This document shows positions 8,725 through 46,880 of a stretch of DNA of 64,000 bases, piece by piece (the first letter of the stretch is position 1; every line of letters begins with the position of its first letter). A program made the position numbers and the translations under genes. Source of the DNA: a virus; IMG/VR virus record IMGVR_UViG_3300045988_148533, positions 1 through 64,000 of that record; one strand, 5' to 3'. Below the pieces are notes generated by a model. That model searched no databases. It worked only from the letters and a program-made list of their open reading frames with translations, and was not told where the DNA came from.

Positions 8725-9096
8725 TTATTCTGTTTCAGACTTTTCATCCTCTTTCTTAGGAAGCTGCAACATTTCATTTATTTCCCTGAAGAAAGGTTCT
8801 ACCACTCTAACATATTCGTCACGAACCAACTTGTAGTCACGCACATCAAGCTGAGAAAAGTTCTTAACCTTAAGGTCTTCAATCAGCTTTGGACACAATA
8901 TCACGAGAGAGGCCTCAATGTCAATCATGTCCAGTGCGTGCTGTGTCATTGTTGATGGACTCATTACCATCGTGTTATAGAAGCCTCTGGAAAGACTCTG
9001 CTTCATAGCCTCTATCTGATAGAACTGTCCAACATTAGGGTAGGGAACCTCATATTCCCTACCCTTTACATTAATCTTTACCGAATTTTCAATCAT
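8725..9096 (-). CDS. tail assembly chaperone candidate (123 aa)
   Basis: Lies directly after the tube gene and has an acidic C-terminus. Based on synteny only. Confidence 0.5.
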   Translation of the reverse strand: MIENSVKINVKGREYEVPYPNVGQFYQIEAMKQSLSRGFYNTMVMSPSTMTQHALDMIDIEASLVILCPKLIEDLKVKNFSQLDVRDYKLVRDEYVRVVEPFFREINEMLQLPKKEDEKSETE

Positions 9097-9109
9097 AATT
9101 ACTTAGCTT

Positions 9110-9604
9110 TTATCCAGCAGTAGTAACGGGTTCAAGATACACTCCCTGAATACCGCTTCCGGCCAGCCCTCCTTCCTGAATCTGGAAGGACTGCTGTGTA
9201 ATGTGACACCCCTGAAGACGAGCTATTGTCTGACCTGTATTGTCAACCTCAGTAACGAGCTTAGTATTTGCATCCTCACTGCTTACCGTTTTGGCATACA
9301 CAGTGATGTCAAAGGCTAAGTCTCCGAGAACAAGACTGTTCTTAATAGCTGCAATGCTGCCCATCTTAGCAAGCATCTTCTTCATAATAGGAGTCTTAAA
9401 GGAGATGAAATACTGGTCAACACTCCACTGACAGGTATAGACAACTGCCGGAACTTCCTGATAGGTAAGACTTCCAAGACCCTGAACATTGGCTCTCTGC
9501 ACATTCTCACTGAAAGTAAGATTCCTGCAATAGCCTGCCACCTCATTATCTATCTTAATGAAAGCCTTAGGAGCTGTAAGTACTTTTGTCTTTGCCATAA
9601 TCAC
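9110..9604 (-). CDS. tail tube protein candidate
   Basis: 164 aa ORF immediately downstream of the sheath-sized ORF. The order sheath-tube-chaperones-TMP is typical of contractile tails. Confidence 0.6.
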   Translation of the reverse strand: MIMAKTKVLTAPKAFIKIDNEVAGYCRNLTFSENVQRANVQGLGSLTYQEVPAVVYTCQWSVDQYFISFKTPIMKKMLAKMGSIAAIKNSLVLGDLAFDITVYAKTVSSEDANTKLVTEVDNTGQTIARLQGCHITQQSFQIQEGGLAGSGIQGVYLEPVTTAG

Positions 9605-9615
9605 ATAGTTTTAAT

Positions 9616-11259
9616 TTACTCACTCAGAATGAATCCAGTGAAGAATATCTTGGTTATCTCACTGTTCAGCACTACCTCGTATGTCACGTTGTAGTAATCC
9701 TGAACACGTGTTGCAACCACATTCTGGAATTTTACAATCAGGTTATCCTGATTCTCAGTAGCAACCCTCGTCTGGAGGAAGTTAATTGTCCATGTCTCAA
9801 GAGCACCCTTTGAAAGGGTATTGAGGTTGACACCGTTCTCATCACCCAGAAGGTCTATTTCAGCATTCACAACACACTCCTTGTTGAGCTGTGCTATGAT
9901 TCTCATGAACTGTATGCTGAAGGATTCCCCTTTCTTATTGTACAGGAGGCTGTTGTCCTGAAGAGTTGTTATGCCCTGAAGAACAACGAATCTTCCAAGA
10001 TAGGGGTTAGGATAAACCACCACAAGTCCGGCCTTAACAGCATTTTCCATTTCCTTCTCAGTAGGAATGTGCTGGAGCTTATCACCACCGATTGTCTTGT
10101 TTGTAACAGGTACATAGGGAGGTTTTCCACTCACACGACCAATGACCTGACACAAATTGTAGAATACACCCCACCATCTGATTCCGGAAGCTACCATGTC
10201 ACTTGCAGTACCAACACCGCCATGGACGCAGACGCACCACGCACTGTTGAAGCCCTTAGCCATAGTCAGAGACTTGTCATAGTTAGCCTTGTCTGCATAG
10301 GCAGCAGTGTAGACAAACTTGTCAAACTTCGCCTGAGTATTCCTGTGGGTTACTACTTTCTTGACAGTAGCACTGTCTCCATCAGCCTCTATCTGGTCTG
10401 TGAACACAATATTGTATTCCACGTCAGATATCTGCTTCAGGAGGTCATCTATGTCGGTAGGTTTGTAGTCCTCAGTTCCACCACTGAAAAGCTCATAACC
10501 GTCAGTCACGTCATCAGTAGCACTGAGCTCGTCAGTACCACCTGCCTCACTTGTGGAATCAAGAATAAATCTTGCTCCAAAATTAGCATCAGTCTGACAC
10601 CACTTAATCACCTCTGCAAGAGTGGTGCATTCAGGAGTCTGACAGATAAGCAGTGGCTCAGCCTGCTCAACTGTGAGCTCATCATAGGAGAGAACCACAC
10701 CTGTAACAGGGTCAGTGTAGTCACCTGTATAAGTTCCACGCCAGAACTTAATCACAACCGCTTCGGGGTTATCCTCTCCAGCCTCAACGGTATATGCGTA
10801 GCCATACTGAAGATGGTCTACATTAAGTTTTCCATTTGCATTGAGACCCTCATCCACTGTCTTAATTGTAAGAGTACCTCCGGCAGCTGGAGAGAATGTC
10901 ATAGATGCAGGGGTTGTAGTGCAGGCCCTTGCATAGAGAAGTTTACTGATACCTGTTGCATCAGCATTGTAGGGGTCTGGATTCCACAGGGCCTCAGCAG
11001 CCTTCCAGAACATACCTCCCTTCACAAAGTTACGGAAATCCTCAAGAGTCTGGAACGTGTACACGGCATCCTTGCCCTGCTTGTCAGTGCCGTTCACTCC
11101 GGAACCACCTCCGAATCCAGCACCGAATTTTCCAGTGTCTATGAGAAGAACTGTGCCGTAATCAAGCGAACGAGAAGCACTACTCTGACCCGAGGTGATA
11201 GTAGAATATACTCCGGGCAGAGTTCTCTGTTTTCCATTGAAATAAACGCTTGTCGCCAT
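9616..11259 (-). CDS. contractile tail sheath protein candidate
   Basis: 547 aa. First gene after a terminator and intergenic region, followed by the tube-sized ORF. Based on size and synteny. Confidence 0.6.
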   Translation of the reverse strand: MATSVYFNGKQRTLPGVYSTITSGQSSASRSLDYGTVLLIDTGKFGAGFGGGSGVNGTDKQGKDAVYTFQTLEDFRNFVKGGMFWKAAEALWNPDPYNADATGISKLLYARACTTTPASMTFSPAAGGTLTIKTVDEGLNANGKLNVDHLQYGYAYTVEAGEDNPEAVVIKFWRGTYTGDYTDPVTGVVLSYDELTVEQAEPLLICQTPECTTLAEVIKWCQTDANFGARFILDSTSEAGGTDELSATDDVTDGYELFSGGTEDYKPTDIDDLLKQISDVEYNIVFTDQIEADGDSATVKKVVTHRNTQAKFDKFVYTAAYADKANYDKSLTMAKGFNSAWCVCVHGGVGTASDMVASGIRWWGVFYNLCQVIGRVSGKPPYVPVTNKTIGGDKLQHIPTEKEMENAVKAGLVVVYPNPYLGRFVVLQGITTLQDNSLLYNKKGESFSIQFMRIIAQLNKECVVNAEIDLLGDENGVNLNTLSKGALETWTINFLQTRVATENQDNLIVKFQNVVATRVQDYYNVTYEVVLNSEITKIFFTGFILSE

Positions 11260-11333
11260 ATTCTAAAATGTTAATTAAATTTCTTTTACGATTGTAAAAA
11301 TACCAAAATCTTTAATATTAATTTTTTCTCATA

Positions 11334-11361
11334 TCAAAAGGGGTGTGAATAACCACACCCC
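11334..11361 (-). terminator. rho-independent terminator after the giant repeat gene
   Basis: Minus strand reads GGGGTGTG-GTTATT-CACACCCC followed by TTTTGATATG. Stem arms at 11340..11347 and 11354..11361. Confidence 0.65.
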
Positions 11362-11380
11362 TCTTCCCAAAACACACACT

Positions 11381-11579
11381 TTATGAAAGTTCCCAGTTCA
11401 CATTGGATGAAACTGTAAATGTCTTGTTAGATGCACTGTTGTCATACTCCAGTGTGGTAGGTGATACATCCAGATAATTAACCTTAGCTACAAGTGTCAC
11501 AGCAGTAGACACCTCAAATGTGTACTCTGCACTGCTGCTAACCAACTCATCACCCTTGTACCAACCGACAAACGCATCA
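11381..11579 (-). repeat. C-terminal module repeat, copy 1 (199 bp)
   Basis: Identical to 15041..15239 except for one synonymous mismatch (11405 g versus 15065 t), by hand alignment. Confidence 0.9.
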
Positions 11580-14500
11580 GCCGAATTCTTCTTAGTGCAT
11601 GAAACTGTAACAGTGTCACCATAGTCATAGGTTCCACCACCGCTGACAGTCGCTCTATCACTCGGATTTGCCGATACAGAGATGGTATAGCTTCGCAGTG
11701 TCCTTGTAGCCTTGGCCGTGTAGGTTGCTGCTGCTGTGACGTTAGTAGGAGCATAGGCAGCTGCTGTTGTCACTCTTGAACCACTTGCATTGTACCAACC
11801 ACTCAGTGAATATGAATATTGAGCGGTTGTCGTCATTGCCGTAGCGGTTGAACCGGAAGCATTACCACCGTGAGCAACCCTCTCTGAAGTTCTACTAATA
11901 GTATTGATATAATCACCCTTGACATAGGTGATGGTATAATATTTCTTAGTAAACCTTGCATAGACTGTCTTGTTTGCTGTGATGTCCGTAATGGTATAGG
12001 AAGCACTTGAACTCAATAGACTGCCTCCAGAAGCACCTGCCGAATACCAACCATCAAAGGTGTATCCAGTGGCCGCTGACGCGGTGACTTTCTTATCTGA
12101 ACCATAATTTACAGTTCCTCCTCCGGAAACAGTTCCTCCGGTGGTTCCTGAGGTATAATTGCCTGTGCCGTCAGTGGTACGGTAATAGGCATTCACCGTA
12201 ACTGTAAATGTCTTGATTGTTGCACGTGCCTGATAAGTAGCATTTGCAGTAACATTTGTCGGTGCGTAAGTAGCTGAAGTTGATACCCTTGAACCACCTG
12301 AATTATACCATCCGCTGAAGTTATATCCAGTAGACACAGTAGCGGTTGAACCCAGTGCAGTATCACCATATTCAACTGTTTCAGAAGCCCTTGAAACACT
12401 TGCTATACCTGTTCCCTTGGTGTAGGAAATGGTATATGTGTTCACCTTATATTCGGCAGTGTAAGTAGCATTTGCAGTCACGGTTATCTGACGGGAAGCT
12501 GTTGTCACACCGTCTGACCATCCTGTAAATGTCTTTCCTGTAATAGTGGAAGCTGTAATCGTTACTTCTGTACCGTAGTCATACGTACCACTTCCGGAAC
12601 CATTTACAACAGTAATAGTGTACTGTCTTGTTGTAGCTGTGCCTCGTGCCTCAAATGACCTGTTTGCCGAAATATTTGAAACACTCAACGCAAGATTTGA
12701 ACTTATCTTACTGCTACCTTCATACCAACCACTAAATGAGTAGGTGTATTGAGCCGTCGTTGCAGGAAGTTTGGCTGTACAGGTTGCAGTGCCACCATAA
12801 GTCACTGTTTCACTCGTTTTGCTAATGGATGCAACATTGGCATTCTTAGAGTAAGAAATTGTATATTTATTAATTGTCGCTGAAGCCGTAATCGTCACAT
12901 TTGACTTCACCCCTGTAAGCGTTGCCACACCGCTTGCAACTGATATGGAAGCTGTACCACTTGTGAGAGTCCATGTAGGTGAATTGTATCCCGTAGCCGC
13001 TGTCGCAGTAGGAGACTTCACAGTACCATTATATGCCACTCTCGTGCTGCTGCTGCTAAGAGTATTGACTCCAGTACCCTTTGCAAATGTAACAGTGTAC
13101 CACCGTTTCTGGAATCGTGCATATACCGTCACTGCTGCTGTAACGGAATTTATCACATAGGATGCTGAAGTACTCAACTGTTCTCCACCTGAATTATACC
13201 AACCGCTGAAGCGGTATCCAGTCTTGGCTTCTGCCGTAAGTGTAACCTCATCTCCATAGTCATAGGTTCCACCACCTTTAACAATACCTCCTGTCGTACC
13301 TGTCGTGAATGAACCTGTACTGTCAGTATCACGATACTGCGCTGTACCTGTAACGACAAACGTCTTTATTGAAGCCTTGGCCGTGTAGGTTGCGCTCGCA
13401 GTAACATTTGCAGGCTTATATGTCAGTGAAGTACTTACCTGATTTCCACTCGCATTGTACCAACCACTGAAATTATATCCTGTTGTCAGTGTTGCCGTAG
13501 AACCCTGAGCCGTAGCACCGTAGTTCACAGTCTCTGAAGCCCTGCTTACGCTCGCAATTCCAGTGCTCTTTGCATAGGTAACTGTAAACGACTTGATTGT
13601 AAATGTAGCTGTGTAAGTTGCAGCTGCCGTAACATTGCTGACAGTAATCGTAGTGTCTGTTTCACCGTTGCTCCATTTAGTAAAGTTATACCCTGTTGAA
13701 GGGGTGGCCTTTGAGGAAGCACTGCCTCCATACTGTACCCTCTGCGAAGTAGGTGAAACTGTACCACCTTTTCCAGCAGCAAATGTAACTGTAAACCATT
13801 TCCTCTGGAATCTTGCAGTAAGTGTCTTGTTTCCGGTAGCTGTAAACTGATAGGAGGCACTTGATGACTGCAATGAAGTCCCGCTGTACCACCCATCAAA
13901 TTCATATCCTGTCGTCGGAGTTGCCTTAGCGGTAACGCTCGAACCATGCGTGTATGTACCACCTCCAGAAACAGTTCCACCTGTCGTGCCGGAGGTATAG
14001 TCACCGCTCTCATTAACACGATACTGAGCCGAAAGTGTAACAGTGTATTTCTTGAGCTCAAACACCGCCTGAACAGTTCTATTCTTTGTAATCTGCCACC
14101 CACTGCTTGGATTCGCAGTATATTCATTGCCCTCTTCATTAACAAACTTGACAAAGTCATACCCTGTTGAAGGGGTGGCTGTCAATGTCACAGAAGAACC
14201 ATAGTCATACGTACCACTTCCAGAGACAGTTCCACCTCCAGTAGGAGTAACCGTCACTGTCATGGTGTATCTGTTCAAAGTTCTCTTTCCGGTGGCCGTA
14301 AATGTTCTGTCAGACTTAATATTCTCAACACTTAAAGCCAGCGAAGTGGATATTCTGGTACTTCCTTCATACCACCCATCAAAACTGTAAGTATATTGAG
14401 CTGTATTCGCCGGAAGAGTGGCTGTACACGTAGCCGTGCCTCCGTAGTTGACAACCTGAGAAGTCCTGCTGATAGTATTTACATAGGAACCTTTGCTGTA

Positions 14501-15019
14501 CACCACGTCATAGGTGGATGTAGCCTGAGTGACTGTTACCTCCACCGGACTGCATCCATTCGCTGTAACATTAAACTTTCCAGTCCTCTGTCCTACTGTA
14601 TTCTTAGGTACTGTAACAACAGCCGACCACGAATACTGAGCTGATGCTCCGGGGTCATTAGGAATGGCACTTCCAGTCGTTACGGCTGTTGAATTCACCT
14701 TTACTGTATCAGGAAAGGTAAATGTTATACTGCTTCCGCTTACTGCCGAAAGCCCTATTGATGTGGCATTTGAAGTACCACTCACTGTAATGGTGGTAGA
14801 ATTCTCCCCAACACTGAAAGTCTTTGTATTCACGGATAGGAATACAGGCTTTGGCTCCTGTGATACTTGATACGACTTCGCAGCTTCCACTCCGGTGGCG
14901 ACTCCTGTCACGGTCGTTGTCCTCTGGACACGACCTGTATGCACCGTTCCAGTGTTCTGGACCGTTGCATTTCCCTGACCTGATTGAGGCTCAACTGTGA
15001 GCCATGCTGCTTTTGCCAT
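11381..15019 (-). CDS. giant surface/adhesin-like protein: BACON-like N- and C-terminal modules flanking about 13 Listeria-Bacteroides (Flg_new-type) repeats
   Basis: 1212 aa. N-terminus LTVEPQSGQGNATVQNTGTVHTGRVQRTTTVTG. The motif Y.F.GWY recurs roughly every 70-90 aa (FDGWYEGS, FSGWYNAS, FSGWYNSG, FVGWYKGD and others). C-terminus LDVSPTTLEYDNSASNKTFTVSSNVNWELS. Confidence 0.7.
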   Translation of the reverse strand: MAKAAWLTVEPQSGQGNATVQNTGTVHTGRVQRTTTVTGVATGVEAAKSYQVSQEPKPVFLSVNTKTFSVGENSTTITVSGTSNATSIGLSAVSGSSITFTFPDTVKVNSTAVTTGSAIPNDPGASAQYSWSAVVTVPKNTVGQRTGKFNVTANGCSPVEVTVTQATSTYDVVYSKGSYVNTISRTSQVVNYGGTATCTATLPANTAQYTYSFDGWYEGSTRISTSLALSVENIKSDRTFTATGKRTLNRYTMTVTVTPTGGGTVSGSGTYDYGSSVTLTATPSTGYDFVKFVNEEGNEYTANPSSGWQITKNRTVQAVFELKKYTVTLSAQYRVNESGDYTSGTTGGTVSGGGTYTHGSSVTAKATPTTGYEFDGWYSGTSLQSSSASYQFTATGNKTLTARFQRKWFTVTFAAGKGGTVSPTSQRVQYGGSASSKATPSTGYNFTKWSNGETDTTITVSNVTAAATYTATFTIKSFTVTYAKSTGIASVSRASETVNYGATAQGSTATLTTGYNFSGWYNASGNQVSTSLTYKPANVTASATYTAKASIKTFVVTGTAQYRDTDSTGSFTTGTTGGIVKGGGTYDYGDEVTLTAEAKTGYRFSGWYNSGGEQLSTSASYVINSVTAAVTVYARFQKRWYTVTFAKGTGVNTLSSSSTRVAYNGTVKSPTATAATGYNSPTWTLTSGTASISVASGVATLTGVKSNVTITASATINKYTISYSKNANVASISKTSETVTYGGTATCTAKLPATTAQYTYSFSGWYEGSSKISSNLALSVSNISANRSFEARGTATTRQYTITVVNGSGSGTYDYGTEVTITASTITGKTFTGWSDGVTTASRQITVTANATYTAEYKVNTYTISYTKGTGIASVSRASETVEYGDTALGSTATVSTGYNFSGWYNSGGSRVSTSATYAPTNVTANATYQARATIKTFTVTVNAYYRTTDGTGNYTSGTTGGTVSGGGTVNYGSDKKVTASAATGYTFDGWYSAGASGGSLLSSSASYTITDITANKTVYARFTKKYYTITYVKGDYINTISRTSERVAHGGNASGSTATAMTTTAQYSYSLSGWYNASGSRVTTAAAYAPTNVTAAATYTAKATRTLRSYTISVSANPSDRATVSGGGTYDYGDTVTVSCTKKNSADAFVGWYKGDELVSSSAEYTFEVSTAVTLVAKVNYLDVSPTTLEYDNSASNKTFTVSSNVNWELS
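14888..15019 (-). repeat. N-terminal module repeat, copy 1 (132 bp)
   Basis: Identical to 16826..16957 by hand alignment. Encodes MAKAAWLTVEPQSGQGNATVQNTGTVHTGRVQRTTTVTGVATGV. Confidence 0.9.
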
Positions 15020-15040
15020 AAAATATTGTTAATAAATTAA

Positions 15041-15239
15041 TTATGAAAGTTCCCAGTTCACATTTGATGAAACTGTAAATGTCTTGTTAGATGCACTGTT
15101 GTCATACTCCAGTGTGGTAGGTGATACATCCAGATAATTAACCTTAGCTACAAGTGTCACAGCAGTAGACACCTCAAATGTGTACTCTGCACTGCTGCTA
15201 ACCAACTCATCACCCTTGTACCAACCGACAAACGCATCA
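15041..15239 (-). repeat. C-terminal module repeat, copy 2 (199 bp)
   Basis: See 11381..11579. Confidence 0.9.
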
Positions 15240-15574
15240 CCGCTCTTGACATTACATTTAACAGTAATATCCTCTCCAATATATCCAGTGCCGGAAGCTG
15301 TGGCTCCAGCAGTACCGCTGCCAACCTGAACGGTTGCTCTCTCTTTAACAGAATCATCAACCGATACCGAAATGGTGACTGTACCCCTCTGAACATCCTT
15401 CTGTCTAACAAAGGCAGTATCAGTGTATCCCTCAAGAGGTGACGCCAAAAAACGTCCTGTGGCCACAAGGTCTTTCTTACGGACAAAATAATTAGCAGCT
15501 ACACCAATGTCTTCAACGGTTATACCTGCAATAGAAGCTGCTTCTGAAGCCTTTGTAAAAGATGTCTCTGCCAT
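15041..15574 (-). CDS. 177-aa protein sharing its C-terminal 66 aa (one Listeria-Bacteroides repeat plus a BACON-like end) with the giant protein
   Basis: ORF track. C-terminus GDAFVGWYKGDELVSSSAEYTFEVSTAVTLVAKVNYLDVSPTTLEYDNSASNKTFTVSSNVNWELS is identical to the end of 11381..15019. Confidence 0.75.
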   Translation of the reverse strand: MAETSFTKASEAASIAGITVEDIGVAANYFVRKKDLVATGRFLASPLEGYTDTAFVRQKDVQRGTVTISVSVDDSVKERATVQVGSGTAGATASGTGYIGEDITVKCNVKSGDAFVGWYKGDELVSSSAEYTFEVSTAVTLVAKVNYLDVSPTTLEYDNSASNKTFTVSSNVNWELS

Positions 15575-15588
15575 AATCCACCCTCCAA

Positions 15589-16053
15589 TTAATCAGTTGT
15601 ATCACCTGCTCCGGCCTGAGCATCGACAAACTTAGTAAAGACAATGCTGCTTGCAACAGTGTTGATTTTATCGACAACGTCCTGACCTGAAACCTTGGGC
15701 CACACCTTACTTTCAATAGTGGAATAGTTACTGTCAGAAAATTTACCTACAATACCATCTCCTGAAAGTTTCCCAAGAATACCATCCTCTGTCAGTATTC
15801 CAAGAATGCCCTTCTCCGTCAGTATTCCAAGAATGCCCTTCTCCGTCAGTTTCCCAAGAATGCCAGCCTCTGTCAGTTTCCCAAGAATGCCAGCCTCTGT
15901 CAGTTTCCCAAGAATGTCATCCTCACTTATCTTACTCCAAAACGCACTCTTATCAATATCTGCCATCATGGAATCAGGGTCAGCCTTCCAGTTCTGAACT
16001 ACTGTAAGCAGTTCATCAACCGTTGCACCTGTAAATTTTGATTGATATGCCAT
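15589..16053 (-). CDS. 154-aa protein with tandem nonapeptide repeats (GILGKLTEx)
   Basis: ORF track. Repeat run ILGKLTEAGILGKLTEAGILGKLTEKGILGILTEKGILGILTEDGILGKLSGDGIVGKFSD. Confidence 0.7.
   Translation of the reverse strand: MAYQSKFTGATVDELLTVVQNWKADPDSMMADIDKSAFWSKISEDDILGKLTEAGILGKLTEAGILGKLTEKGILGILTEKGILGILTEDGILGKLSGDGIVGKFSDSNYSTIESKVWPKVSGQDVVDKINTVASSIVFTKFVDAQAGAGDTTD
15764..15925 (-). repeat. six tandem 27-nt repeats inside a CDS
   Basis: Unit boundaries at 15764, 15791, 15818, 15845, 15872 and 15899. Units 2 and 3 are identical, as are units 4 and 5. A degenerate seventh unit lies just upstream in plus-strand coordinates. Confidence 0.85.
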
Positions 16054-16057
16054 ATTC

Positions 16058-16306
16058 TTACTCCTTTAATACTCCAAATGATTGATTAGTGGAATCTAAA
16101 AATTCAGTACCATCCTGCTGTAAAAACGGCTCTCGCATACCGAGATGTGTAACTGTAAGAGTCTTGGACAGGGGCAATGTGCCCTCAGCAACCTTGACAG
16201 TAATCTGCATCTCTCTATCGTATCCCTCATTAGGAAAAGAAGAAGCCAAAGGCTGCACTGACACAGCCTTTGAACTTCTTTTCGTGCTTCTTCTTTTCGC
16301 AGCCAT
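16058..16306 (-). CDS. small hypothetical protein (82 aa), basic N-terminus
   Basis: ORF track. Packed between 16053 and 16310. Confidence 0.55.
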   Translation of the reverse strand: MAAKRRSTKRSSKAVSVQPLASSFPNEGYDREMQITVKVAEGTLPLSKTLTVTHLGMREPFLQQDGTEFLDSTNQSFGVLKE

Positions 16307-16309
16307 AAC

Positions 16310-16957
16310 CTATGACAATGTCCAAGAAGCATTCGAGATAATACCAATGGATACTGCCGAACCGTCTGCCTCCATCTGTATGGACTCCTGAGAGAATGCA
16401 AATGTAGGGTCTCCAGCCGACTGCTTAATCTGAATTTGACCTGTCTGGCCTCCAGTGGTTGTCACCTTCAGAGCAGACGTCAATTCTTTGATGGAAGTGT
16501 TAGCTGGAATACCTGTGAATTCAACCGTGAAAGCATACTCTTGAGTAGCTCCGGGGTCTCCGGTAATCTCAACACCATTTTCAGTGGAAGCACCGCCAGC
16601 ATCATAACTGTCAGGTAAGCTAAGGTTAAGACCACCCTCCACAATACCAGAAGTACCATCGTCATCACTAATGGAGACAATTTCGAAAGTCAGCTTGCTC
16701 GAATTGGACTTACCCTTAACGGACAAACTGCCACCAGCCTTACCGACAGTAATCTCAGCACCGTTGTCAAAGCTAACGAATTCCGGTTTAGCTTTCTGAA
16801 TTACTTCATAAGTTTTGTTAGGAGTCACTCCGGTGGCGACTCCTGTCACGGTCGTTGTCCTCTGGACACGACCTGTATGCACCGTTCCAGTGTTCTGGAC
16901 CGTTGCATTTCCCTGACCTGATTGAGGCTCAACTGTGAGCCATGCTGCTTTTGCCAT
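16310..16957 (-). CDS. 215-aa protein with the same BACON-like N-terminal 44 aa as the giant protein and a BACON-like C-terminal end
   Basis: N-terminus identical to 11381..15019. C-terminus FAFSQESIQMEADGSAVSIGIISNASWTLS. Confidence 0.75.
   Translation of the reverse strand: MAKAAWLTVEPQSGQGNATVQNTGTVHTGRVQRTTTVTGVATGVTPNKTYEVIQKAKPEFVSFDNGAEITVGKAGGSLSVKGKSNSSKLTFEIVSISDDDGTSGIVEGGLNLSLPDSYDAGGASTENGVEITGDPGATQEYAFTVEFTGIPANTSIKELTSALKVTTTGGQTGQIQIKQSAGDPTFAFSQESIQMEADGSAVSIGIISNASWTLS
16826..16957 (-). repeat. N-terminal module repeat, copy 2 (132 bp)
   Basis: See 14888..15019. Confidence 0.9.
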
Positions 16958-16984
16958 ACTACAACAAGATTTTAAATTACCTTA

Positions 16985-16992
16985 CAAAATTA
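16985..16992 (-). promoter_or_regulatory. Bacteroidota-type -7 box (TAATTTTG)
   Basis: Minus strand TAATTTTG, 27 nt upstream of ATG 16957. Matches the TAnnTTTG consensus. Confidence 0.5.
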
Positions 16993-17012
16993 AATATTAT
17001 GCTTGAACCTAC

Positions 17013-17900
17013 CTACTCCAATTTCCAAGGAACAATAGATTCTATCTTCTGTTCACCCTTATCCTCATCATTCAGCCACACGTAAGGTGTGCCGAACTTG
17101 AACATCTCGTCTGACTCAAGATACAGCTTCCAGTCAGTGTTACTGAATATCTTCTGTTCGCCCTTTAAGGTAATGTCATCAAGCCAGACATAAGGCCATC
17201 CAAACTCAAAATAAAGTGTCTTTTCGGGTTCCGGTTCAACCCAGTTAGGGTCTGAATCAACAGGAATGGGTCTTTCAAAGCAGAACTTCTTCACAAGCTC
17301 CGGCCTTATAATAGAGGGGAAGTCAGGTATATCCTGCACTTCAACAACTATATTCTTTATCAACAATGGCTGCGGAAACACACTGTTCTCAGCTATCAAT
17401 TCTGAGCAGCTGAAATTGAAAGAGTTAAATTCTTCCTCAAAGGTATTTCTTGCTCCTGTGAACAGTGCATACAAAACTTCACTTATAAGTATTGACTCCA
17501 ATGAATTATCACTGAAGCACATCAATTCTATGCGACATTCAATAGGATGCCTAAACCCCTCACGAGCATATTCCGGCACGCCAAACTCATCCACAGGTGC
17601 AAGGCCAAAGCCTCCTATCGGAGCTGGAGAACCACCCTTATTGGACTCCCTCACTACAATGCACGGAATATGTGACTTGTCCTTTGGGTATTCCATTGTT
17701 GTGTGTATCTTCCTTGGACTCACTGCTTTCCTGAGAAATATATCCTTTGCCTGTTCATAGAAGTCAAAGGAGCCGTCACGAACCCCCCATAGAATATGAT
17801 ATAGGAAGGACTGTGTTTCGGGTACGGATTCAAAGTCATTCTGTATATATTCCAGAAGACCGTCAACTATCTGCTTTATTCTCTGAATCAATATTAACAT
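17013..17900 (-). CDS. hypothetical neck/tail-module protein (295 aa)
   Basis: ORF track. The C-terminus carries a duplicated ~30-aa unit (F.FG.PYVWL.D...GEQKI.S...WKL, two copies). Confidence 0.65.
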   Translation of the reverse strand: MLILIQRIKQIVDGLLEYIQNDFESVPETQSFLYHILWGVRDGSFDFYEQAKDIFLRKAVSPRKIHTTMEYPKDKSHIPCIVVRESNKGGSPAPIGGFGLAPVDEFGVPEYAREGFRHPIECRIELMCFSDNSLESILISEVLYALFTGARNTFEEEFNSFNFSCSELIAENSVFPQPLLIKNIVVEVQDIPDFPSIIRPELVKKFCFERPIPVDSDPNWVEPEPEKTLYFEFGWPYVWLDDITLKGEQKIFSNTDWKLYLESDEMFKFGTPYVWLNDEDKGEQKIESIVPWKLE

Positions 17901-17901
17901 A

Positions 17902-18672
17902 TCACAACTGTTCTAAAAAGTTATCAATAGCCATATCAGCAACTGTCTCTATCTGAGAGGCTTCCAATGCCTTATCCATAAATAAACGTGCTTCAAATCC
18001 GGGATGAATCCAGCTCAATACATCACTGTTATTGCTTACCCTGCGAAATGTGAAATACCCTCCACGATTCTCATTCTTGGTAGAACTGATATCCATTCTA
18101 ACCAACCCTTCAAATTTCGGCGATTTATGGACGTATTCTGGAATAACACCCTTATCAGTCATAAGTGCCTTACGCCTGCCCAACTGAGCAAACTGCTCCG
18201 GCAATTGACTCCGTCTAACCCTGCTTCCACCATTGCTCTTAACAATATTGAATATTTCCTGAGGCAGCTTACCTTGAAAGGACATTGATTCCGCAACAGC
18301 AGTAGGGGTGGCGTACCTAAATGGGATGGTCAAATACCACCCTCCACCCAGTGTTGTCTTTCTCTTAGGAGAATTCTTGAACCCTTCCTTAATATCAAAC
18401 GGTGGCTTACCTTCCTCTATTGCAAGTGCAAGCCCATCCTCTCCGGGAGCCAGACCAAATTCCACTGTCGTGGAACTGTCCCTGTTGATATACATAGCGG
18501 ACTTGTATAACTTCCGCAGCTGCTTCAAGTTATCATTCACAAGCCCTTCCCATTTTCTGGAATATTCAGCTACTATTCTGTCAATTATCTCACTGCCAAG
18601 AGCTTCAGCCTGCCCCTCGCTAAGATTGAATTCATCAACCACTTCACTGATATCCAAATGAATAGGAACCAT
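17902..18672 (-). CDS. hypothetical head-tail joining region protein (256 aa)
   Basis: ORF track. Tightly coupled with its neighbours. Confidence 0.65.
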   Translation of the reverse strand: MVPIHLDISEVVDEFNLSEGQAEALGSEIIDRIVAEYSRKWEGLVNDNLKQLRKLYKSAMYINRDSSTTVEFGLAPGEDGLALAIEEGKPPFDIKEGFKNSPKRKTTLGGGWYLTIPFRYATPTAVAESMSFQGKLPQEIFNIVKSNGGSRVRRSQLPEQFAQLGRRKALMTDKGVIPEYVHKSPKFEGLVRMDISSTKNENRGGYFTFRRVSNNSDVLSWIHPGFEARLFMDKALEASQIETVADMAIDNFLEQL

Positions 18673-19472
18673 TATTTGTCATCATTAAGGATTATTCCAG
18701 TTCCATCAAAATTGGGTCGCTGCATATCTATAAGATGCGTTCTGCGCCCTATCGCCTGTATCGGCATCTTGAGTATCTCGTATCTACCACTCAACTTATC
18801 CTTCCCCAATGAAGCTCGAATTTCGTGCGGTAAGTCCACAACATGATATTCAACTCTATGTCTGTACAACACTGACACACCAACACCCTCCGGCACATTA
18901 CCCTTTCTAAAGACAAGACAGTAGGGGTTGTTCTCAGCAATGCTATACACTGACTGACTCAGCTTTATAAGAGGCGAATATGAATCCTTAAATATGTAAA
19001 CAGCAACGATTCCATCCTCAAGAGGCGCATAGGAGAGAAATACACCGACAGTATCCTCAGCCATCTGCCTTGCTACAACCATCTCTGTGAACTGCGCATA
19101 TTCGTCCTCAACCGTAACCCTGTCAAAATAGGACAGACTCTCCTTGTCACAGTCTCTGACAGTTATTGCTGCCGTACCCATAAGTTCAGGATTCCACTGT
19201 ACATACTGTGTGCTGCGATTAAGCCCAGTAATGAGAGCCTTTGTCCTAATTGGATTTATGAACACATACCCGAATCCATGGCAGTTCTGACAGTTAGGCA
19301 GTGGAGCACCGCTGCTGCCCTGACAGGGGCATCTAATGGCCTTCTCACAGATTATATCGTAGCCATGAGACCAGATAGCAGCATCAAAGTCATTTGGCCG
19401 AAATTGTACAGAAGGTTGTCCATACAGGTTCTGTTGGGGTGCATCCTTTATAACTCTTGCCATATATTTCAA
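18672..19472 (-). CDS. hypothetical structural-module protein (266 aa) with a Cys cluster (CPCQGSSGAPLPNCQNCHGFG)
   Basis: ORF track. CxC...CxxC motif near the N-terminus. First gene after the promoter-containing intergenic region. Confidence 0.65.
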   Translation of the reverse strand: MKYMARVIKDAPQQNLYGQPSVQFRPNDFDAAIWSHGYDIICEKAIRCPCQGSSGAPLPNCQNCHGFGYVFINPIRTKALITGLNRSTQYVQWNPELMGTAAITVRDCDKESLSYFDRVTVEDEYAQFTEMVVARQMAEDTVGVFLSYAPLEDGIVAVYIFKDSYSPLIKLSQSVYSIAENNPYCLVFRKGNVPEGVGVSVLYRHRVEYHVVDLPHEIRASLGKDKLSGRYEILKMPIQAIGRRTHLIDMQRPNFDGTGIILNDDK

Positions 19473-19509
19473 TCTTTATTGAATTTTTCTGAATTTTTCA
19501 TTGCTGATA

Positions 19510-34229: not shown

Positions 34230-34266
34230 TTAAAAATTAACATTTGTGTATTTAAATATTTTTATT

Positions 34267-34274
34267 TTACTTTG
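34267..34274 (+). promoter_or_regulatory. near-consensus -7 box (TTACTTTG) for rep
   Basis: 22 nt upstream of ATG 34297. One deviation from TAnnTTTG. Confidence 0.35.
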
Positions 34275-34296
34275 CAAAAATTTAAATATTATCATC

Positions 34297-35046
34297 ATGA
34301 ATAATAAGGAAAAGAAGGTGGCTGTTGCCACTAAAGAATCAATTGGTGACATTGTTGATTACACTGTAAGGCAGAAGCGGTGCTGGGCCTTAATCGTAAG
34401 AGAGGTGAATAAATTTCTACCTAAGAATTTCTGGGAAATATGGCAGGAAGGGGACTTGGAAACAATTGAAAAGCTGCTACCGCTGAATAAATTTCATGAA
34501 TTTGAAATGGAAATAAAAGCCTCAGAAATATCCACAAGAAGTTCTATTGTTCCGACACTCGAAAAGCTACATAATACCGTTGTAAAGATTAGAGACAGAA
34601 AAGACTTGGAAGTCTTTAGCATTATTCATTCCTATGGCGTTGTAAACAACAGGTATTATATTCGCATAACTCCTCGTGTCATCATGTGGATTATAGGTGT
34701 AAGTAGGAGAAGACTTTTCACAGCCTTTCATTTGGAATCCTTTCTAAGGCTTTCCACAACATCCGCCATGAATCTATACCTGTATATAAGCGCAAACTAC
34801 AATAAAACTGAAGCTTCTCAGAAGGGAACATGGTCGGATACACTGGAAAATGTAAAAAAAGAAATGGGTATCACAAAAGATATAGATAATTACCGTTTTA
34901 TAAATGACTATCTCAAGCCTGCTGCTGCCGAATTAATCCTAAAGAATACCCACCTGAAAGTCAGGTATGAAGCACAAAAGGAAGAAGTTCCTGCCATGAA
35001 TAGACGTAAGGCATGGGACAGGATATTATTTATGATTGAAAAATAG
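34297..35046 (+). CDS. iteron-type replication initiator (Rep_3/RepB-like winged-helix)
   Basis: Start placed at MNNKEKK, because the ORF-track start at 34246 lies inside the promoter. The C-terminal half FLRLSTTSAMNLYLYISANYNK...TWSDTLENVKKEMGITKDIDNYRFINDYLKPAAAELILKNTHLKVRYEAQKE follows the Rep_3 pattern. Iterons lie directly upstream. Confidence 0.55.
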   Translation: MNNKEKKVAVATKESIGDIVDYTVRQKRCWALIVREVNKFLPKNFWEIWQEGDLETIEKLLPLNKFHEFEMEIKASEISTRSSIVPTLEKLHNTVVKIRDRKDLEVFSIIHSYGVVNNRYYIRITPRVIMWIIGVSRRRLFTAFHLESFLRLSTTSAMNLYLYISANYNKTEASQKGTWSDTLENVKKEMGITKDIDNYRFINDYLKPAAAELILKNTHLKVRYEAQKEEVPAMNRRKAWDRILFMIEK

Positions 35047-36211: not shown

Positions 36212-36805
36212 ATGCTTTCAACCGGATATATAAATACACCCAAGGAAATATATGAACGTCAGTCCATCCTCGAACCTACGGACAGTGCGCTGCCTGAAAG
36301 GTATCTACTCAAGAATCTGCTGCCTGTACAGAATCAGGGAAATCTGCCTGCCTGTGTGGGATATGTCATCAACGAAATGTATCAATACAGGCTTCAACTG
36401 GACGGTCTAAGTGATGCAGCACGTATAACACCGGAATACATCTATCGCAGCCGTTCCAATAGAGAGGTGGACGGTATGAATCCAGTGGATGGATTTACAA
36501 TTCTAAGGGAATCCATTTCAGATTCATTCAAACTGCATTGGGCACGACTGTCCACGGCTGCAATAAAAGAAGCCGTGATGGGGTTAGGCCCTGTGATGCT
36601 GTGCATGGCCTGTCACAGTTACAGTAAAGAATTCTGGAAAGGGGGTGGTCTTCTCGGAGGTCATGCCGTGTCCATTGTCGGGTGGAATGGCGGTAGATTC
36701 ATCCTTAAGAACTCATGGGGCACGGAATGGGCCGACGGTGGGTACACCGAGATTCTTCTTCCTGAGATTAACTCCTATGGACAGGAAATGTGGGTTCTCA
36801 TATAA
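36212..36805 (+). CDS. papain-family (C1A) cysteine peptidase, minimal 197-aa form
   Basis: QGNLPACVGYV (oxyanion Gln plus catalytic Cys with papain spacing), GGHAVSIVGWN (His), LKNSWGTEWADGGY (the Asn-Ser-Trp block of papain). Confidence 0.85.
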   Translation: MLSTGYINTPKEIYERQSILEPTDSALPERYLLKNLLPVQNQGNLPACVGYVINEMYQYRLQLDGLSDAARITPEYIYRSRSNREVDGMNPVDGFTILRESISDSFKLHWARLSTAAIKEAVMGLGPVMLCMACHSYSKEFWKGGGLLGGHAVSIVGWNGGRFILKNSWGTEWADGGYTEILLPEINSYGQEMWVLI

Positions 36806-36861: not shown

Positions 36862-37755
36862 TCAGTAGCAGTTCACAGTCTGACTGCCGTTCTGCAGGGT
36901 GAACGGCCCATATACCCTTCCACCTGCTCCAGGTGCTGTCCACGACTCTGATGACTGAGTAAATCTTATGTAGAAAGTGCCACCCACCATGATGTTGTCC
37001 TGTGTGACCATACTCTGTGACTGACTGAAGTCATAGCCCGACAGAGTGCCTGCCCACTGTTTGATAAAGTTGTTACCCGACTTAGTCATGCCTGTAAATA
37101 GACTCTGGGCTGCTCCCGGAACGCTGTTGTCCGTGCCTATGTATGCTGCATACCATACAGCACCGCCTGTATTGGCTGTAAGGGTATAGCCTGGAGTCAC
37201 TGAGTTGGCCTTCTGGCCGAAGGTGAACCCAACCGTGGAGCCTGTCACCTTATTTGTAAAATAGTATTTGCAGGTTCTTGCAACTGTTCTACCGTTACGT
37301 GTCCATGAAATGCCTGTACTAAACTGTTTCAGAGCAGCAGTATATGTCATATTAGCGGAATCTGTCTCGTCAAATGTCACGAACGGCAGAACAGTTGCAC
37401 CTCCACTGCCTGAATTTGAGCTGATGGTAAAGTGTGCTGCGACATCCTGTGCATTGCCTCCATTTATGTACTTCTTCATGGTTGAAGCAATACATACCAT
37501 AACACTTCCGCCTGCCGCATCCAGTTCACTCATGTCCGGTCCAGGAACCACTGCTGAAAAAATGTTTACGGAGTAGTGACCGTATGTCACTGTGCCTGCG
37601 GCTTGACTTATTGATACGGTTCGGGTCAGACCGCCACCGCTGACGGTGATGGAGGTACTGCGAGAATTCTCAGTGTTATTCTGTGAAGCGGAACAGGTAA
37701 CAGTACCGTTACCGGAACCGCTGTCTGGGGTCGCTGTTATGAAACTTTTCTGCAT
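36862..37755 (-). CDS. BACON-module protein, currently expressed variant (constant N-terminal exon plus V1 domain)
   Basis: 297 aa. N-terminus PDSGSGNGTVTCSASQNNTENSRSTSITVSGGGLTRTVSISQ, then the AAGTVTYGHY junction encoded by the repeat core. C-terminus FYIRFTQSSESWTAPGAGGRVYGPFTLQNGSQTV. Confidence 0.75.
   Translation of the reverse strand: MQKSFITATPDSGSGNGTVTCSASQNNTENSRSTSITVSGGGLTRTVSISQAAGTVTYGHYSVNIFSAVVPGPDMSELDAAGGSVMVCIASTMKKYINGGNAQDVAAHFTISSNSGSGGATVLPFVTFDETDSANMTYTAALKQFSTGISWTRNGRTVARTCKYYFTNKVTGSTVGFTFGQKANSVTPGYTLTANTGGAVWYAAYIGTDNSVPGAAQSLFTGMTKSGNNFIKQWAGTLSGYDFSQSQSMVTQDNIMVGGTFYIRFTQSSESWTAPGAGGRVYGPFTLQNGSQTVNCY
37586..37604 (-). repeat. 19-nt core, copy a (inverted relative to b and c)
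   Basis: Minus strand AAGCCGCAGGCACAGTGAC, inside the CDS at the junction between the BACON module and the variable domain. Confidence 0.9.
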
Positions 37756-46606: not shown

Positions 46607-46867
46607 CTATAGATTATTGGTTACATACACCGTGTCATTGTGACGTGTATAATTAATGATGTTTCTTGCAGGAACCACCGTGTTGGTGGCGGTGTCCACG
46701 TCAAAGGTGGAGATTGTTACGGTGTCACCGCTTTCACTTAGGAGTCTCTCCATATTTGCCTGAATGTAGGCTTCGCACTGACCGATGAGGCCTGTAAATA
46801 CATTGCTGCCTGTTGCGTCAAATACGCCGAAGAATGCTGTGTTGACTGTTTTCATGACCATTAACAT
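46607..46867 (-). CDS. hypothetical protein (86 aa, or 82 aa if it starts at 46855)
   Basis: ORF track. The start MKTVNT at 46855 better fits the 24-34 nt promoter-to-ATG spacing seen at the sister promoters. Confidence 0.55.
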   Translation of the reverse strand: MLMVMKTVNTAFFGVFDATGSNVFTGLIGQCEAYIQANMERLLSESGDTVTISTFDVDTATNTVVPARNIINYTRHNDTVYVTNNL

Positions 46868-46880
46868 TTTGTTTTACGGG

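What the first reader, a model, noticed from the sequence alone, without database searches (positions are those of the whole stretch)
11381..16957. Exact N-terminal (132 bp) and C-terminal (199 bp) modules duplicated in direct orientation around two different cargoes
14888..15019 is identical to 16826..16957. Both encode MAKAAWLTVEPQSGQGNATVQNTGTVHTGRVQRTTTVTGVATGV. 11381..11579 matches 15041..15239 with a single synonymous mismatch. Both encode one Listeria-Bacteroides repeat plus a BACON-like end.

The layout, read on the minus strand, is [N-module - 171 aa][82 aa][nonapeptide-repeat protein][111 aa - C-module][N-module - 1100 aa of repeats - C-module]. One head-plus-tail pair frames a single giant gene. 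The other pair frames four small genes. Sequence outside the modules is unrelated.

Near-perfect identity of only the termini suggests recent gene conversion or recombination-mediated cassette exchange. It also predicts deletion and fusion variants by homologous recombination between the direct repeats.
Basis: partly seen in the sequence, partly recalled or inferred. Interest (0 to 1): 0.65.

Follow-up and report, generated by a model that had tools for sequence, protein, structure and literature searches.

The report
Gene conversion between split-BACON phage fibre genes
Two exact repeats in a gut phage are recent copy-and-paste (gene conversion) patches between old sister genes of a conserved five-gene surface-fibre block, and the copied pieces are the two halves of one Ig-like (BACON) domain sitting at protein ends, which may let the proteins plug into each other.

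Summary
14888-15019 equals 16826-16957 (132/132), and 11381-11579 matches 15041-15239 (198/199). These are the only long near-exact repeats in the window.

The "two cargoes" reading is not supported. All five minus-strand genes (215, 82, 154, 177 and 1212 aa) form a block conserved in about 45 related ~100-kb gut myovirus genomes. In most relatives the same termini are only 56-69% identical, so the paralogy is old.

In this lineage the start of the 215-aa gene overwrote the start of the giant gene. Later, the end of the 177-aa gene overwrote the giant gene's end. Close relatives show the N tract identical in every intact genome, with lineage-specific substitutions shared by both copies. Their C tracts run from 17 to 199 nt and go in both directions. 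This is recurrent gene conversion. No deletion variant was found.

New point: the C module's last 32 aa and the N module are the first and second halves of one BACON domain. Joined, they give a single full-length Pfam hit and match the solved BoGH5A BACON domain as one stretch. The same stop/start split occurs in crAss-like phages. I infer, untested, that the halves act as plug-and-socket connectors.

The parts
16826..16957 (-). N tract, copy 1: codons 1-44 of the 215-aa gene (p215). It encodes the second half of a BACON domain (the 'plug'). This is the donor copy.
   Evidence: 132/132 identical to 14888-15019. Pfam BACON_2 profile positions 40-88 of 94. Groups with p215 orthologues of relatives at 84-88% aa.
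14888..15019 (-). N tract, copy 2: codons 1-44 of the 1212-aa giant gene. This is the converted (recipient) copy.
   Evidence: Falls in the p215-type (N1) clade, not the giant-type (N2) clade. The residues right after the tract (EAAKSY) are giant-type.
15041..15239 (-). C tract, copy 1: last 65 codons plus stop of the 177-aa gene (p177). This is the donor copy. 15140-15239 encodes the end of a Flg_new_2 repeat. 15041-15139 encodes the first half of a BACON domain (the 'socket') plus TAA.
   Evidence: 198/199 identical to 11381-11579. 91% identical to the p177 orthologue end in L075. Pfam BACON_2 profile 2-36 for the last 32 aa.
11381..11579 (-). C tract, copy 2: last 65 codons plus stop of the giant gene. 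This is the recipient copy. It carries one derived substitution at 11405.
   Evidence: Identity to the orthologous giant gene of L075 falls from about 90% to 52-66% exactly here. It is 90% identical to L075 p177 but 62% identical to the L075 giant end. L081 has both copies identical.
15020..15040 (-). 21-nt spacer between the p177 stop and the giant-gene ATG. This is the split point of the BACON domain.
   Evidence: The spacer is 10-26 nt in relatives, mostly out of frame, with extra stops. There is no tRNA in the window. Translational fusion is therefore not conserved.
16310..16957 (-). p215: plug, then a central Ig-like domain, then its own socket (16310-16408).
   Evidence: AF2: residues ~55-180 are confident (pLDDT ~90) and both termini are 36-54. 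Foldseek gives Ig-like folds including 3zmr. Stand-alone ~210-aa homologues with the same ends occur in crAss-like phages.
16058..16306 (-). p82: small conserved protein with a basic N-terminus.
   Evidence: Conserved in relatives. No Pfam or PHROG hit. Similarity to the plug is not significant.
15589..16053 (-). p154: protein with a 9-aa (27-nt) tandem repeat at 15719-15934.
   Evidence: Repeat family D1. Orthologues are 91, 127, 145 or 154 aa in near-identical phages.
15041..15574 (-). p177: unique N-terminal ~65 aa, one Flg_new_2-like repeat, then a terminal socket.
   Evidence: Pfam. Family representatives are all 173-181 aa.
11381..15019 (-). Giant gene (1212 aa): plug, Ig-like domain, about 14 Listeria-Bacteroides (Flg_new) repeats, socket.
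   Evidence: Pfam Flg_new_2 E 1e-72 and Flg_new E 3e-41, 7 stretches each. Orthologues range from 355 to 1390 aa.
36862..37755 (-). p297: a third protein that starts with a second-half BACON (plug), followed by an unrelated 240-aa body.
   Evidence: N-half HMM E 6e-5. Pfam BACON PF13004 34.3 bits, residues 4-52 = profile 10-61. Homologues share the N-terminal ~55 aa but carry different bodies.
9616..11259 (-). Tail sheath gene, the downstream flank of the block.
   Evidence: phrog_279 tail sheath, E 6e-28.
17013..17900 (-). p295: conserved gene of unknown function in the virion gene cluster, the upstream flank of the block.
   Evidence: Conserved in 59 loci. It lies directly next to the sheath gene in the distant clade that lacks the block.

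Best explanation
The repeats are gene-conversion tracts between old paralogues.

Shown:
- Five adjacent genes between a gene of the virion gene cluster and the tail-sheath gene form a conserved block in a family of ~100-kb gut myoviruses.
- p215 and the giant protein share an old N-terminal region of about 180 aa. p177 and the giant protein share an old C-terminal region of about 110 aa.
- In this lineage the first 132 nt of p215 replaced the start of the giant gene. That event is shared by the whole species-level clade and has been renewed since.
- More recently, the last 199 nt of p177 replaced the end of the giant gene. That event is seen only in the window and L081.
- On one side the tracts stop at the ATG or the stop codon, because homology ends there.
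- The copied pieces are two halves of one BACON Ig-like domain. Three proteins end with the first ~30 aa (p215, p177, giant). Three begin with the remaining ~50 aa (p215, giant, p297).

Inferred:
- Conversion happens by homologous recombination or patch repair between the direct repeats in replicating phage DNA. Once the copies are identical it recurs easily.
- Reciprocal deletions are removed by selection, because all five genes are needed.
- The half-domains are connectors. A C-terminal 'socket' of one protein and an N-terminal 'plug' of another rebuild one beta-sandwich. This would chain p177, the giant protein and p215 or p297 into a virion-surface fibre or adhesin. Conversion keeps the connectors interchangeable.

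I put about 0.85 on the conversion part and about 0.4 on the connector part.
For: Paralogy is old.
- Intragenomic N1-N2 nt identity is 56-69% and C1-C2 is 57-66% in most of the 15 IMG/VR relatives examined that carry both copies.

Direction of conversion.
- The window's N2 clusters in the p215-type clade. The window's C2 clusters with p177 ends.
- Local identity to the L075 orthologue collapses only over 11381-11600.

Concerted evolution.
- L075 has N1 = N2 at 131/132, and both copies carry TMHTG where both window copies carry TVHTG.
- All 12 intact close relatives have N tracts of 132-134 nt with 0-1 mismatch.

Recurrence.
- C tracts are 199, 98, 81, 46-57 or 17-24 nt long in close relatives.
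- L076 and L020 were converted in the opposite direction.

Real sequence, not artefact.
- L081, from another sample, shows the same layout.
- Contigs L072 and L079 break inside N2, and L082 breaks inside C1.

Split domain.
- C tail + N module gives one BACON_2 hit, profile 2-91 of 94, 38.9 bits against a cut-off of 25. Each half alone is below the cut-off.
- The same holds in four relatives (29-49 bits), and a reversed-order control splits into two stretches.
- A profile of the concatenations matches the solved BACON domain of 3zmr_A (residues 8-82) as one stretch, E 1.3e-4.
- Unsplit cellular homologues read '..SWNVSKDANANWLTI..'.
- The same socket|plug gene junction occurs in Crassvirales cr127_1 and cr111_1.
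- The plug is a portable module on different bodies.
- In the AF2 model of p215 the core is confident and both termini are not.
Against: Conversion.
- No recombinase was identified in the window (partial survey only).
- Short-read assemblers can homogenise near-identical repeats, although a 132-nt repeat is shorter than a read pair can span.

Connector model.
- There is no structural or biochemical evidence.
- AF2 on an artificial socket+plug fusion without an alignment was uninformative (pLDDT 46).
- No natural fused p177-giant protein was found.
- The same plug sequence would have to accept sockets that are only ~60% identical (L075). The giant gene of L015 ends in two tandem sockets. Pairing rules are therefore unclear.
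- Pairing within one chain (circular permutation) is not excluded.
- The plug/socket count covers only 64 kb plus 10 kb of a 103-kb genome.
Confidence: 0.8

Rival explanations
1. Assembly artefact. A repeat was collapsed or mis-joined, so the identity is produced by the assembler.
For: The data are short-read metagenome assemblies. Several related contigs end inside the repeats, which shows that assemblers struggle here. The L080 scaffold has a frameshifting internal deletion in N1.
Against: - The same layout appears in an independent sample (L081).
- 12 other assemblies of close relatives show identical N tracts.
- Both reading frames are intact.
- Tract ends coincide with the ends of homology.
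- One private substitution (11405) distinguishes the two C copies in the window.
Confidence: 0.03
2. Young duplication or a cassette system. The modules are borders of exchangeable cassettes, or leftovers of a recent tandem duplication, framing two alternative cargoes that recombination swaps or deletes.
For: - Direct repeats flank both segments.
- The giant gene varies from 355 to 1390 aa among relatives.
- Allele classes of the p215 body and the p177 5' part are reshuffled between genomes.
Against: - Both 'cargoes' are present together in every relative that has the block, apart from L024, where other genes replace p215 and p82.
- In most relatives the same termini are only ~60% identical, so the duplication is old.
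- There are no inverted repeats and no recombinase gene was seen in the block.
- No N1xN2 or C1xC2 deletion appears in about 45 genomes.
Confidence: 0.07
3. The tracts were imported from a co-infecting relative by inter-genome recombination, rather than copied from the resident paralogue.
For: The locus is clearly mosaic between genomes. All four allele combinations exist, and patches of 61-77% identity occur inside otherwise ~90% identical genes.
Against: - The recipient copy matches the resident donor at 100% and 99.5%, including lineage-specific substitutions shared by both copies within each genome (TVHTG vs TMHTG).
- No relative's giant gene with p177-type ends has been seen outside the window/L081 lineage.
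Confidence: 0.08
4. Rival for the functional part only. The half-domains pair within one chain: p215 and the giant protein are circular permutants whose own N and C ends form one BACON domain. Only p177 and p297 would then pair in trans.
For: - p215-type proteins of ~210 aa with the same two ends are a stand-alone family, also found in crAss-like phages.
- The geometry is possible for a two-domain protein.
- The window holds exactly one socket-only protein and one plug-only protein.
Against: - AF2 did not place the p215 termini together with any confidence.
- Closing a 355-1390-aa repeat fibre on itself is awkward.
- Socket-ending genes lie directly upstream of plug-starting genes in two phage orders, which fits pairing between neighbouring gene products.
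Confidence: 0.3

Closest known systems
Recombination at conserved motifs in T-even tail-fibre genes, and mosaic tail-fibre evolution in general (own knowledge: Tetart et al. 1998; Sandmeier 1994)
   Same: Short conserved stretches inside otherwise divergent fibre or adhesin genes act as recombination points. The result is mosaic genes.
   Different: Here the exchange is mainly non-reciprocal, occurs between paralogues within one genome, and is repeated (concerted evolution). The stretches are half-domains at the very ends of the proteins.
Phages with several tailspikes or fibres that share a conserved N-terminal anchor module, for example CBA120, K1-5 and multi-depolymerase Klebsiella phages (own knowledge)
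   Same: Several virion-surface proteins in one genome carry the same terminal module and different bodies.
   Different: Those anchors are complete domains that bind a baseplate or adaptor. Here the shared modules are incomplete halves of an Ig-like domain, and both N- and C-terminal types exist.
BACON domains and BACON tandem repeats of crAssphage and other gut phages (PMC6949934); the BACON domain of BoGH5A (PDB 3ZMR)
   Same: Same domain family (Pfam PF19190/PF13004). Same ecological setting of Bacteroidota gut phages, with genes next to structural genes.
   Different: The domains described there are complete within one polypeptide. Here the domain is divided by a stop, a 10-26-nt spacer and a start. 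That paper's section on BACON configurations (the part read) does not describe a split.
Donor-strand complementation of chaperone-usher pili and strand exchange in Bacteroidota type V pili (own knowledge)
   Same: An incomplete Ig-like fold in one subunit would be completed by a segment of the next subunit, giving head-to-tail chains. This resemblance is to the inferred mechanism only.
   Different: In pili one strand is donated. Here about half the sandwich (three versus four strands) would come from each partner. No chaperone or usher is involved, and nothing has been shown experimentally.
Modular Ig-like adhesins of crAss-like and Flandersviridae-related gut phages that mediate epithelial adherence (PMC13370021); Flandersviridae structural block with BACON domains (PMC8008677)
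   Same: A ~100-kb gut myovirus with a contractile tail and BACON/Ig-like proteins in the structural block. The p215 body shows allele-class variation.
   Different: Identity with the proteins tested there was not established: peptide searches of the supplements found nothing. Family membership of this phage was not tested.

Membership tests
Gene conversion / concerted evolution between paralogues | Paralogues within a genome are more alike than orthologues between genomes. | tested here: met
   Window N1 = N2 at 132/132 and L075 N1 = N2 at 131/132, but window vs L075 is 128-129/132, with a substitution shared by both copies in each genome.
Gene conversion / concerted evolution between paralogues | A discrete tract with sharp ends lies inside a longer, diverged homologous region. 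| tested here: met
   Identity drops from 100% to about 55% after codon 44. Homology continues to ~180 aa at ~25% identity. The C tract covers 199 nt of a 112-aa homologous region.
Gene conversion / concerted evolution between paralogues | The converted copy nests within the donor's clade. | tested here: met
   UPGMA and nearest neighbours. tblastn identities are 84-88% vs 54-68% for N and 57-62% vs 46-50% for C.
Gene conversion / concerted evolution between paralogues | Independent events occur in related lineages. | tested here: met
   C tracts of 17-199 nt. Opposite direction in L076 and L020. Partial homogenisation in L023.
BACON domain (Pfam PF19190 BACON_2) | A full-length match above the gathering score within one polypeptide. 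| tested here: not met
   p215 scores 19.3 bits on profile 40-88 only. The socket alone scores 15.4 bits on profile 2-36. Only the artificial concatenation reaches 38.9 bits on profile 2-91.
BACON domain (Pfam PF19190 BACON_2) | The two halves together correspond to one solved beta-sandwich domain. | tested here: met
   A profile of socket+plug concatenations aligns as one stretch to 3zmr_A residues 8-82 (E 1.3e-4) and to 8va4_A residues 35-119.
Listeria-Bacteroides repeat protein (Flg_new / Flg_new_2) | Multiple significant repeat matches. | tested here: met
   Giant protein: PF18998 E 1.1e-72 and PF09479 E 3.1e-41, 7 stretches each.
Site-specific cassette or phase-variation system (shufflon, invertase switch) | Inverted repeats and an adjacent recombinase. 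| tested here: not met
   No inverted repeats in the locus or the window. No recombinase family was hit by the five block genes or their neighbours.
Diversity-generating retroelement | A template/variable repeat pair differing at adenines, plus a reverse transcriptase. | tested here: not met
   The copies differ at 0 and 1 positions. In relatives the copies differ at all base types. A reverse transcriptase was not searched for across the whole window.
Fold or donor-strand complementation assembly | A subunit carries an incomplete Ig-like fold at a terminus. | tested here: met
   Sequence level only. The AF2 termini of p215 have pLDDT 36-54 against ~90 for the core.
Fold or donor-strand complementation assembly | The missing part is supplied by another polypeptide in a stable complex. 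| not testable with these tools
   No multimer prediction was available. The single-chain fusion without an alignment gave pLDDT 46.
Flandersviridae (proposed family) | An ~85-105-kb genome, a contractile tail, BACON/Ig domains in the structural block, and TerL and PolA phylogeny. | tested here: inconclusive
   Source-type contigs are 100-103 kb. Sheath gene present. BACON present. TerL and PolA placement was not tested. The nearest cultured major capsid proteins are Bacteroides phages DAC16-23 at 36%.

The most novel reading that the evidence does not exclude
Gut Bacteroidota phages, both this myovirus family and Crassvirales, use a naturally split BACON Ig-like domain as a non-covalent connector. 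The first three strands sit at the C-terminus of one virion protein and the remaining strands at the N-terminus of another. Fold complementation would chain anchor, shaft and tip proteins into modular fibres or adhesins. Recurrent gene conversion keeps plugs and sockets interchangeable, so that bodies can be reshuffled.
Probability: 0.35. Interest if true: 0.8.

Novelty: new variant of a known kind. Interest (0 to 1): 0.55.

Why it matters
Taken alone, the repeats are an unusually clean and well-dated case of concerted evolution inside a phage adhesin locus. There are at least three separate events, in both directions, among genomes whose flanking structural genes (sheath, p295, p256) are 91-96% identical.

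The larger point is the split domain. If half-BACON termini are connectors, they would explain three things:
- why many small 'BACON' proteins of gut phages start or end mid-domain;
- how long Ig-repeat fibres are attached to virions;
- how adhesin bodies can be swapped without redesigning the attachment.

These proteins belong to the class reported to mediate adherence of abundant gut phages to epithelia (PMC13370021). Their assembly rules therefore bear on phage persistence in the gut and on engineering displayed adhesins. A natural split Ig-like domain would also be a useful protein-engineering part.

Tried and rejected
- Megablast of 9000-19500 against GenBank phages: no match.
- Exact 47-nt N-module search in IMG/VR: none.
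- AF2 of an artificial socket+plug fusion without an alignment: pLDDT 46, uninformative.
- AF2 of p215 did not show cis pairing of the termini, but the alignment was shallow (32 sequences, at least 67% identical).
- Foldseek on p215: only generic Ig-like matches.
- phmmer of p215 against PDB: nothing.
- Search for natural p177-giant fusions among 50%-identity representatives: the hit list was dominated by Flg_new repeats, and all full-length p177 relatives are 173-181 aa.
- p82 as a third plug: hhalign probability 1.3%, rejected. There is only a weak lead that p82 completes a different truncated BACON.
- p297 relatives in IMG/VR: none.
- Peptide search in the supplements of PMC13370021: none.
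- Literature searches for donor-strand assembly in phage fibres and for gene conversion between phage fibre paralogues: nothing relevant.
- Sigma-70 promoter and terminator scan: not informative for a Bacteroidota phage.
- PHROG survey for a recombinase among ten larger ORFs: none.
- Read-through or frameshift fusion of p177 and the giant protein: rejected. Spacers are 10-26 nt, mostly out of frame, with extra stops, and there are no tRNAs.
- DGR and shufflon readings: rejected (see membership tests).

Full report
**1. The observation**

The repeats are real.
- 14888-15019 and 16826-16957 are identical over 132 nt. Identity begins one base before the ATG and stops after codon 44.
- 11381-11579 and 15041-15239 are identical at 198 of 199 nt and end exactly at the TAA. 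The single difference is 11405 C against 15065 A.
- They are the only long near-exact repeats in the 64-kb window, and the window has no inverted repeats.

**2. Context**

- The block lies between a conserved gene of unknown function in the virion gene cluster (p295, 17013-17900) and the tail sheath gene (9616-11259, phrog_279).
- The giant protein is a Listeria-Bacteroides repeat protein: Flg_new_2 E 1e-72 and Flg_new E 3e-41.
- The window is part of an uncultured phage of about 103 kb with a contractile tail.
- The nearest cultured major capsid proteins belong to Bacteroides phages, at 36% identity.
- It fits the description of Flandersviridae-like gut myoviruses (PMC8008677, PMC13370021). 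I did not test family membership.

**3. The block is conserved, not two alternative cargoes**

- Searching IMG/VR with the sheath protein gave 69 loci. About 27 of them (sheath 71-79% identical) carry the same five genes in the same order. Their sizes are 210-215, 61-96, 65-182, 99-295 and 355-1390 aa.
- A more distant clade (sheath ~50%) has p295 directly next to the sheath gene, or one endonuclease-like ORF between them. The whole block is therefore an accessory module of one clade.
- Sixteen further loci (L075-L090) from closer relatives, found through p215 homologues and cluster members, again have all five genes wherever the contig spans the block.
- No genome lacks the four small genes or the giant gene in the way that recombination between the repeats would produce.
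- Sequence outside the modules is not unrelated. p215 aligns with the first 178 aa of the giant protein (E 2e-35), and p177 aligns with its last 112 aa.

**4. Old paralogy, recent conversion**

- In most of the 15 IMG/VR relatives examined that carry both copies, the two N-termini are 56-69% identical at nucleotide level and the two C-termini 57-66%.
- The window's N module is 84-88% identical in protein to p215 orthologues, but only 54-68% to giant-gene orthologues. It clusters in the p215 clade. The residues just after the tract in the giant gene (EAAKSY) are of the giant type. The start of p215 therefore overwrote the start of the giant gene.
- The window's C module clusters with p177 ends: 90-91% identical to L075 p177, and 62% to the L075 giant end.
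- Identity between the window and the otherwise ~90% identical giant gene of L075 collapses to 52-66% exactly over 11381-11600. The end of p177 therefore overwrote the end of the giant gene, after the split from L075.

**5. Recurrence**

- In L075 the two N copies are 131/132 identical, and both read TMHTG where both window copies read TVHTG. This needs at least one further conversion after the lineages separated.
- All 12 intact close relatives have N tracts of 132-134 nt with 0-1 mismatch.
- C tracts, measured from the stop codon, are:
  - 199 nt in the window and L081;
  - 98 nt in L076;
  - 81 nt in L083;
  - 46-57 nt in L084-L090;
  - 17-24 nt in L075, L077 and L080.
- In L076 the shared end is of the giant type, so conversion there ran the other way. 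The same applies to L020, where the C ends are 90% identical. L023 shows an older event, at 75%.
- L081, from a different sample, is 99.97% identical to the window over 20.6 kb and has identical C copies. This dates the window's one mismatch to after the conversion and argues against an assembly artefact.
- Contigs L072 and L079 end inside N2, and L082 ends inside C1, as expected where an assembler meets a true repeat.

**6. Exchange between genomes**

Within the species-level clade (sheath ~95% identical):
- the p215 body occurs in two allele classes (96% vs 77% identical to the window);
- the 5' part of p177 occurs in two classes (92% vs 76%);
- all four combinations exist.

Inter-genome recombination therefore also reshuffles the bodies.

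**7. What the modules are**

- The N module matches only positions 40-88 of the 94-position viral BACON profile. The last 32 aa of the C module match positions 2-36.
- Joined in the order C then N, they give one full-length hit: positions 2-91, 38.9 bits against a cut-off of 25, E 8e-10.
- The same holds for concatenations from four relatives (29-49 bits). The reversed order gives two separate stretches.
- A profile of such concatenations aligns as a single stretch to the solved BACON domain of BoGH5A (3zmr_A residues 8-82, E 1.3e-4) and to 8va4_A.
- Unsplit cellular lipoproteins read '..TSNTSWNVSKDANANWLTIGSSNGS..'. The phage break ('..NVNWELS stop / MAKAAWLTVEPQSG..') falls in the loop between the two conserved tryptophans.
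- All p215, p177 and giant orthologues end this way. All p215 orthologues, and the giant orthologues apart from the degenerate start in L015, begin this way.
- The p177|giant spacer is 10-26 nt, usually out of frame, with extra stops. The window has no tRNA genes. Read-through fusion is therefore not the explanation.
- HMMs of the two halves find a third 'plug' at the start of p297 (36862-37755). Its homologues share the N-terminal ~55 aa but carry unrelated bodies.
- In Crassvirales, cr127_1 has a 70-aa gene ending in a socket. Ten nucleotides later a 211-aa p215 homologue starts with a plug and ends with a socket. cr111_1 is similar.

**8. How it most likely works**

*Shown:* the conversions, their direction and recurrence, and the half-domain nature of the termini.

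*Inferred:*
- A socket of one protein and a plug of another rebuild one BACON sandwich. This would link an anchor (p177), a long shaft (the giant protein) and distal proteins (p215, p297) into a virion-surface fibre or adhesin.
- Conversion keeps the connectors compatible, and deletions are purged.

*Support is indirect:*
- the break point is conserved;
- socket-ending genes sit directly upstream of plug-starting genes in two phage orders;
- the plug is portable;
- in the AF2 model of p215 the central Ig-like domain is confident (pLDDT ~90) and both termini are not (36-54).

*Against:*
- there is no structural evidence, and the one fusion model was uninformative;
- no natural fusion was found;
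- pairing would have to be promiscuous;
- cis pairing (circular permutation) remains possible.

**9. Verdict**

The split BACON termini are the more interesting and unreported feature, but they rest on sequence inference only.

Noticed in passing
window 15719-15934 (inside p154, 15589-16053, minus strand): The 27-nt (9-aa, GILGKLTEx) tandem repeat varies in copy number among near-identical phages. Orthologues are 91, 127, 145 and 154 aa (65-182 aa in the wider family). This is possibly a length-variable fibre shaft.
   Followed up: partly
window 36862-37755 (minus strand): A 297-aa lone minus-strand gene among plus-strand genes starts with a second-half BACON at residue 4. Homologues keep the N-terminal ~55 aa at ~80% identity but carry unrelated C-terminal bodies of 173-347 aa.
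   Followed up: partly
L091:12573-14921 (same phage as the window, ~2.5-5 kb beyond window position 1) and window 16058-16306: A 782-aa Flg_new_2 protein ends in a BACON domain cut after about five strands ('..WAELNPATGSSGVTTVNVEITKKG*'). p82 carries the motif of the missing last strands ('NEGYDREMQITVKV..KTLTVTH'). A trimmed concatenation reaches PF13004 positions 3-59 of 61 at 26.4 bits. The untrimmed one reaches 22.2 bits. This may be a second kind of split, but the evidence is weak.
   Followed up: partly
L071:2278-3136 (cr127_1) and L070:1362-2759 (cr111_1): crAss-like phages have the same arrangement: a small gene ending in a first-half BACON, immediately followed by a ~210-aa p215 homologue that starts with the second half and ends with another first half.
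   Followed up: partly
window 16300-16750 and 12050-12200, compared with L075: Patches of 61-77% identity lie inside genes that are otherwise ~90% identical. The p215 body and the p177 5' part each have two allele classes, and all four combinations are present among close relatives.
   Followed up: partly
window 46855-46932, 50647-50724, 51989-52066, 56214-56291, 57127-57204: A 78-nt intergenic repeat occurs in five copies. Read on the minus strand it contains TAnnTTTG (the Bacteroidota -7 promoter box, own knowledge) and a short palindrome, CAAGAAAAATCTTG. These are likely repeated promoter or operator elements, and they fit a Bacteroidota host.
   Followed up: no
window 59998-61578, 61651-63987, 53443-54069, 36212-36805, 34246-35046: The phage encodes a GroEL-like chaperonin, a ribonucleotide reductase, a sigma factor, a papain-family peptidase and a Rep3-like initiator domain protein.
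   Followed up: no
L088:5741-6529, L089:5742-6529, L090:5397-6185; L030:9013-9987; L091:18875-20927: There is presence/absence polymorphism of a GIY-YIG/NUMOD3 homing endonuclease between two structural genes in close relatives. An endonuclease-like 324-aa ORF lies between p295 and the sheath gene in the distant clade. The terminase gene contains an intein.
   Followed up: no
L080:9915-10000; proteins P0129-P0132: Some assemblies show defects inside the N1 repeat: an internal deletion that shifts the reading frame, a 9-nt SGQ duplication, and N-terminally truncated gene calls. These are either assembler errors at the repeat or real slippage and recombination variants.
   Followed up: no
L024:825-5233: In one relative, p215 and p82 are replaced by about 4.4 kb of unrelated small genes. 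The p154-like gene, the p177-like gene and the giant gene are kept.
   Followed up: no
L015:8570-9931: The giant-gene orthologue (453 aa) ends with two first-half BACON units in tandem and starts with a degenerate plug preceded by a 20-aa extension.
   Followed up: no
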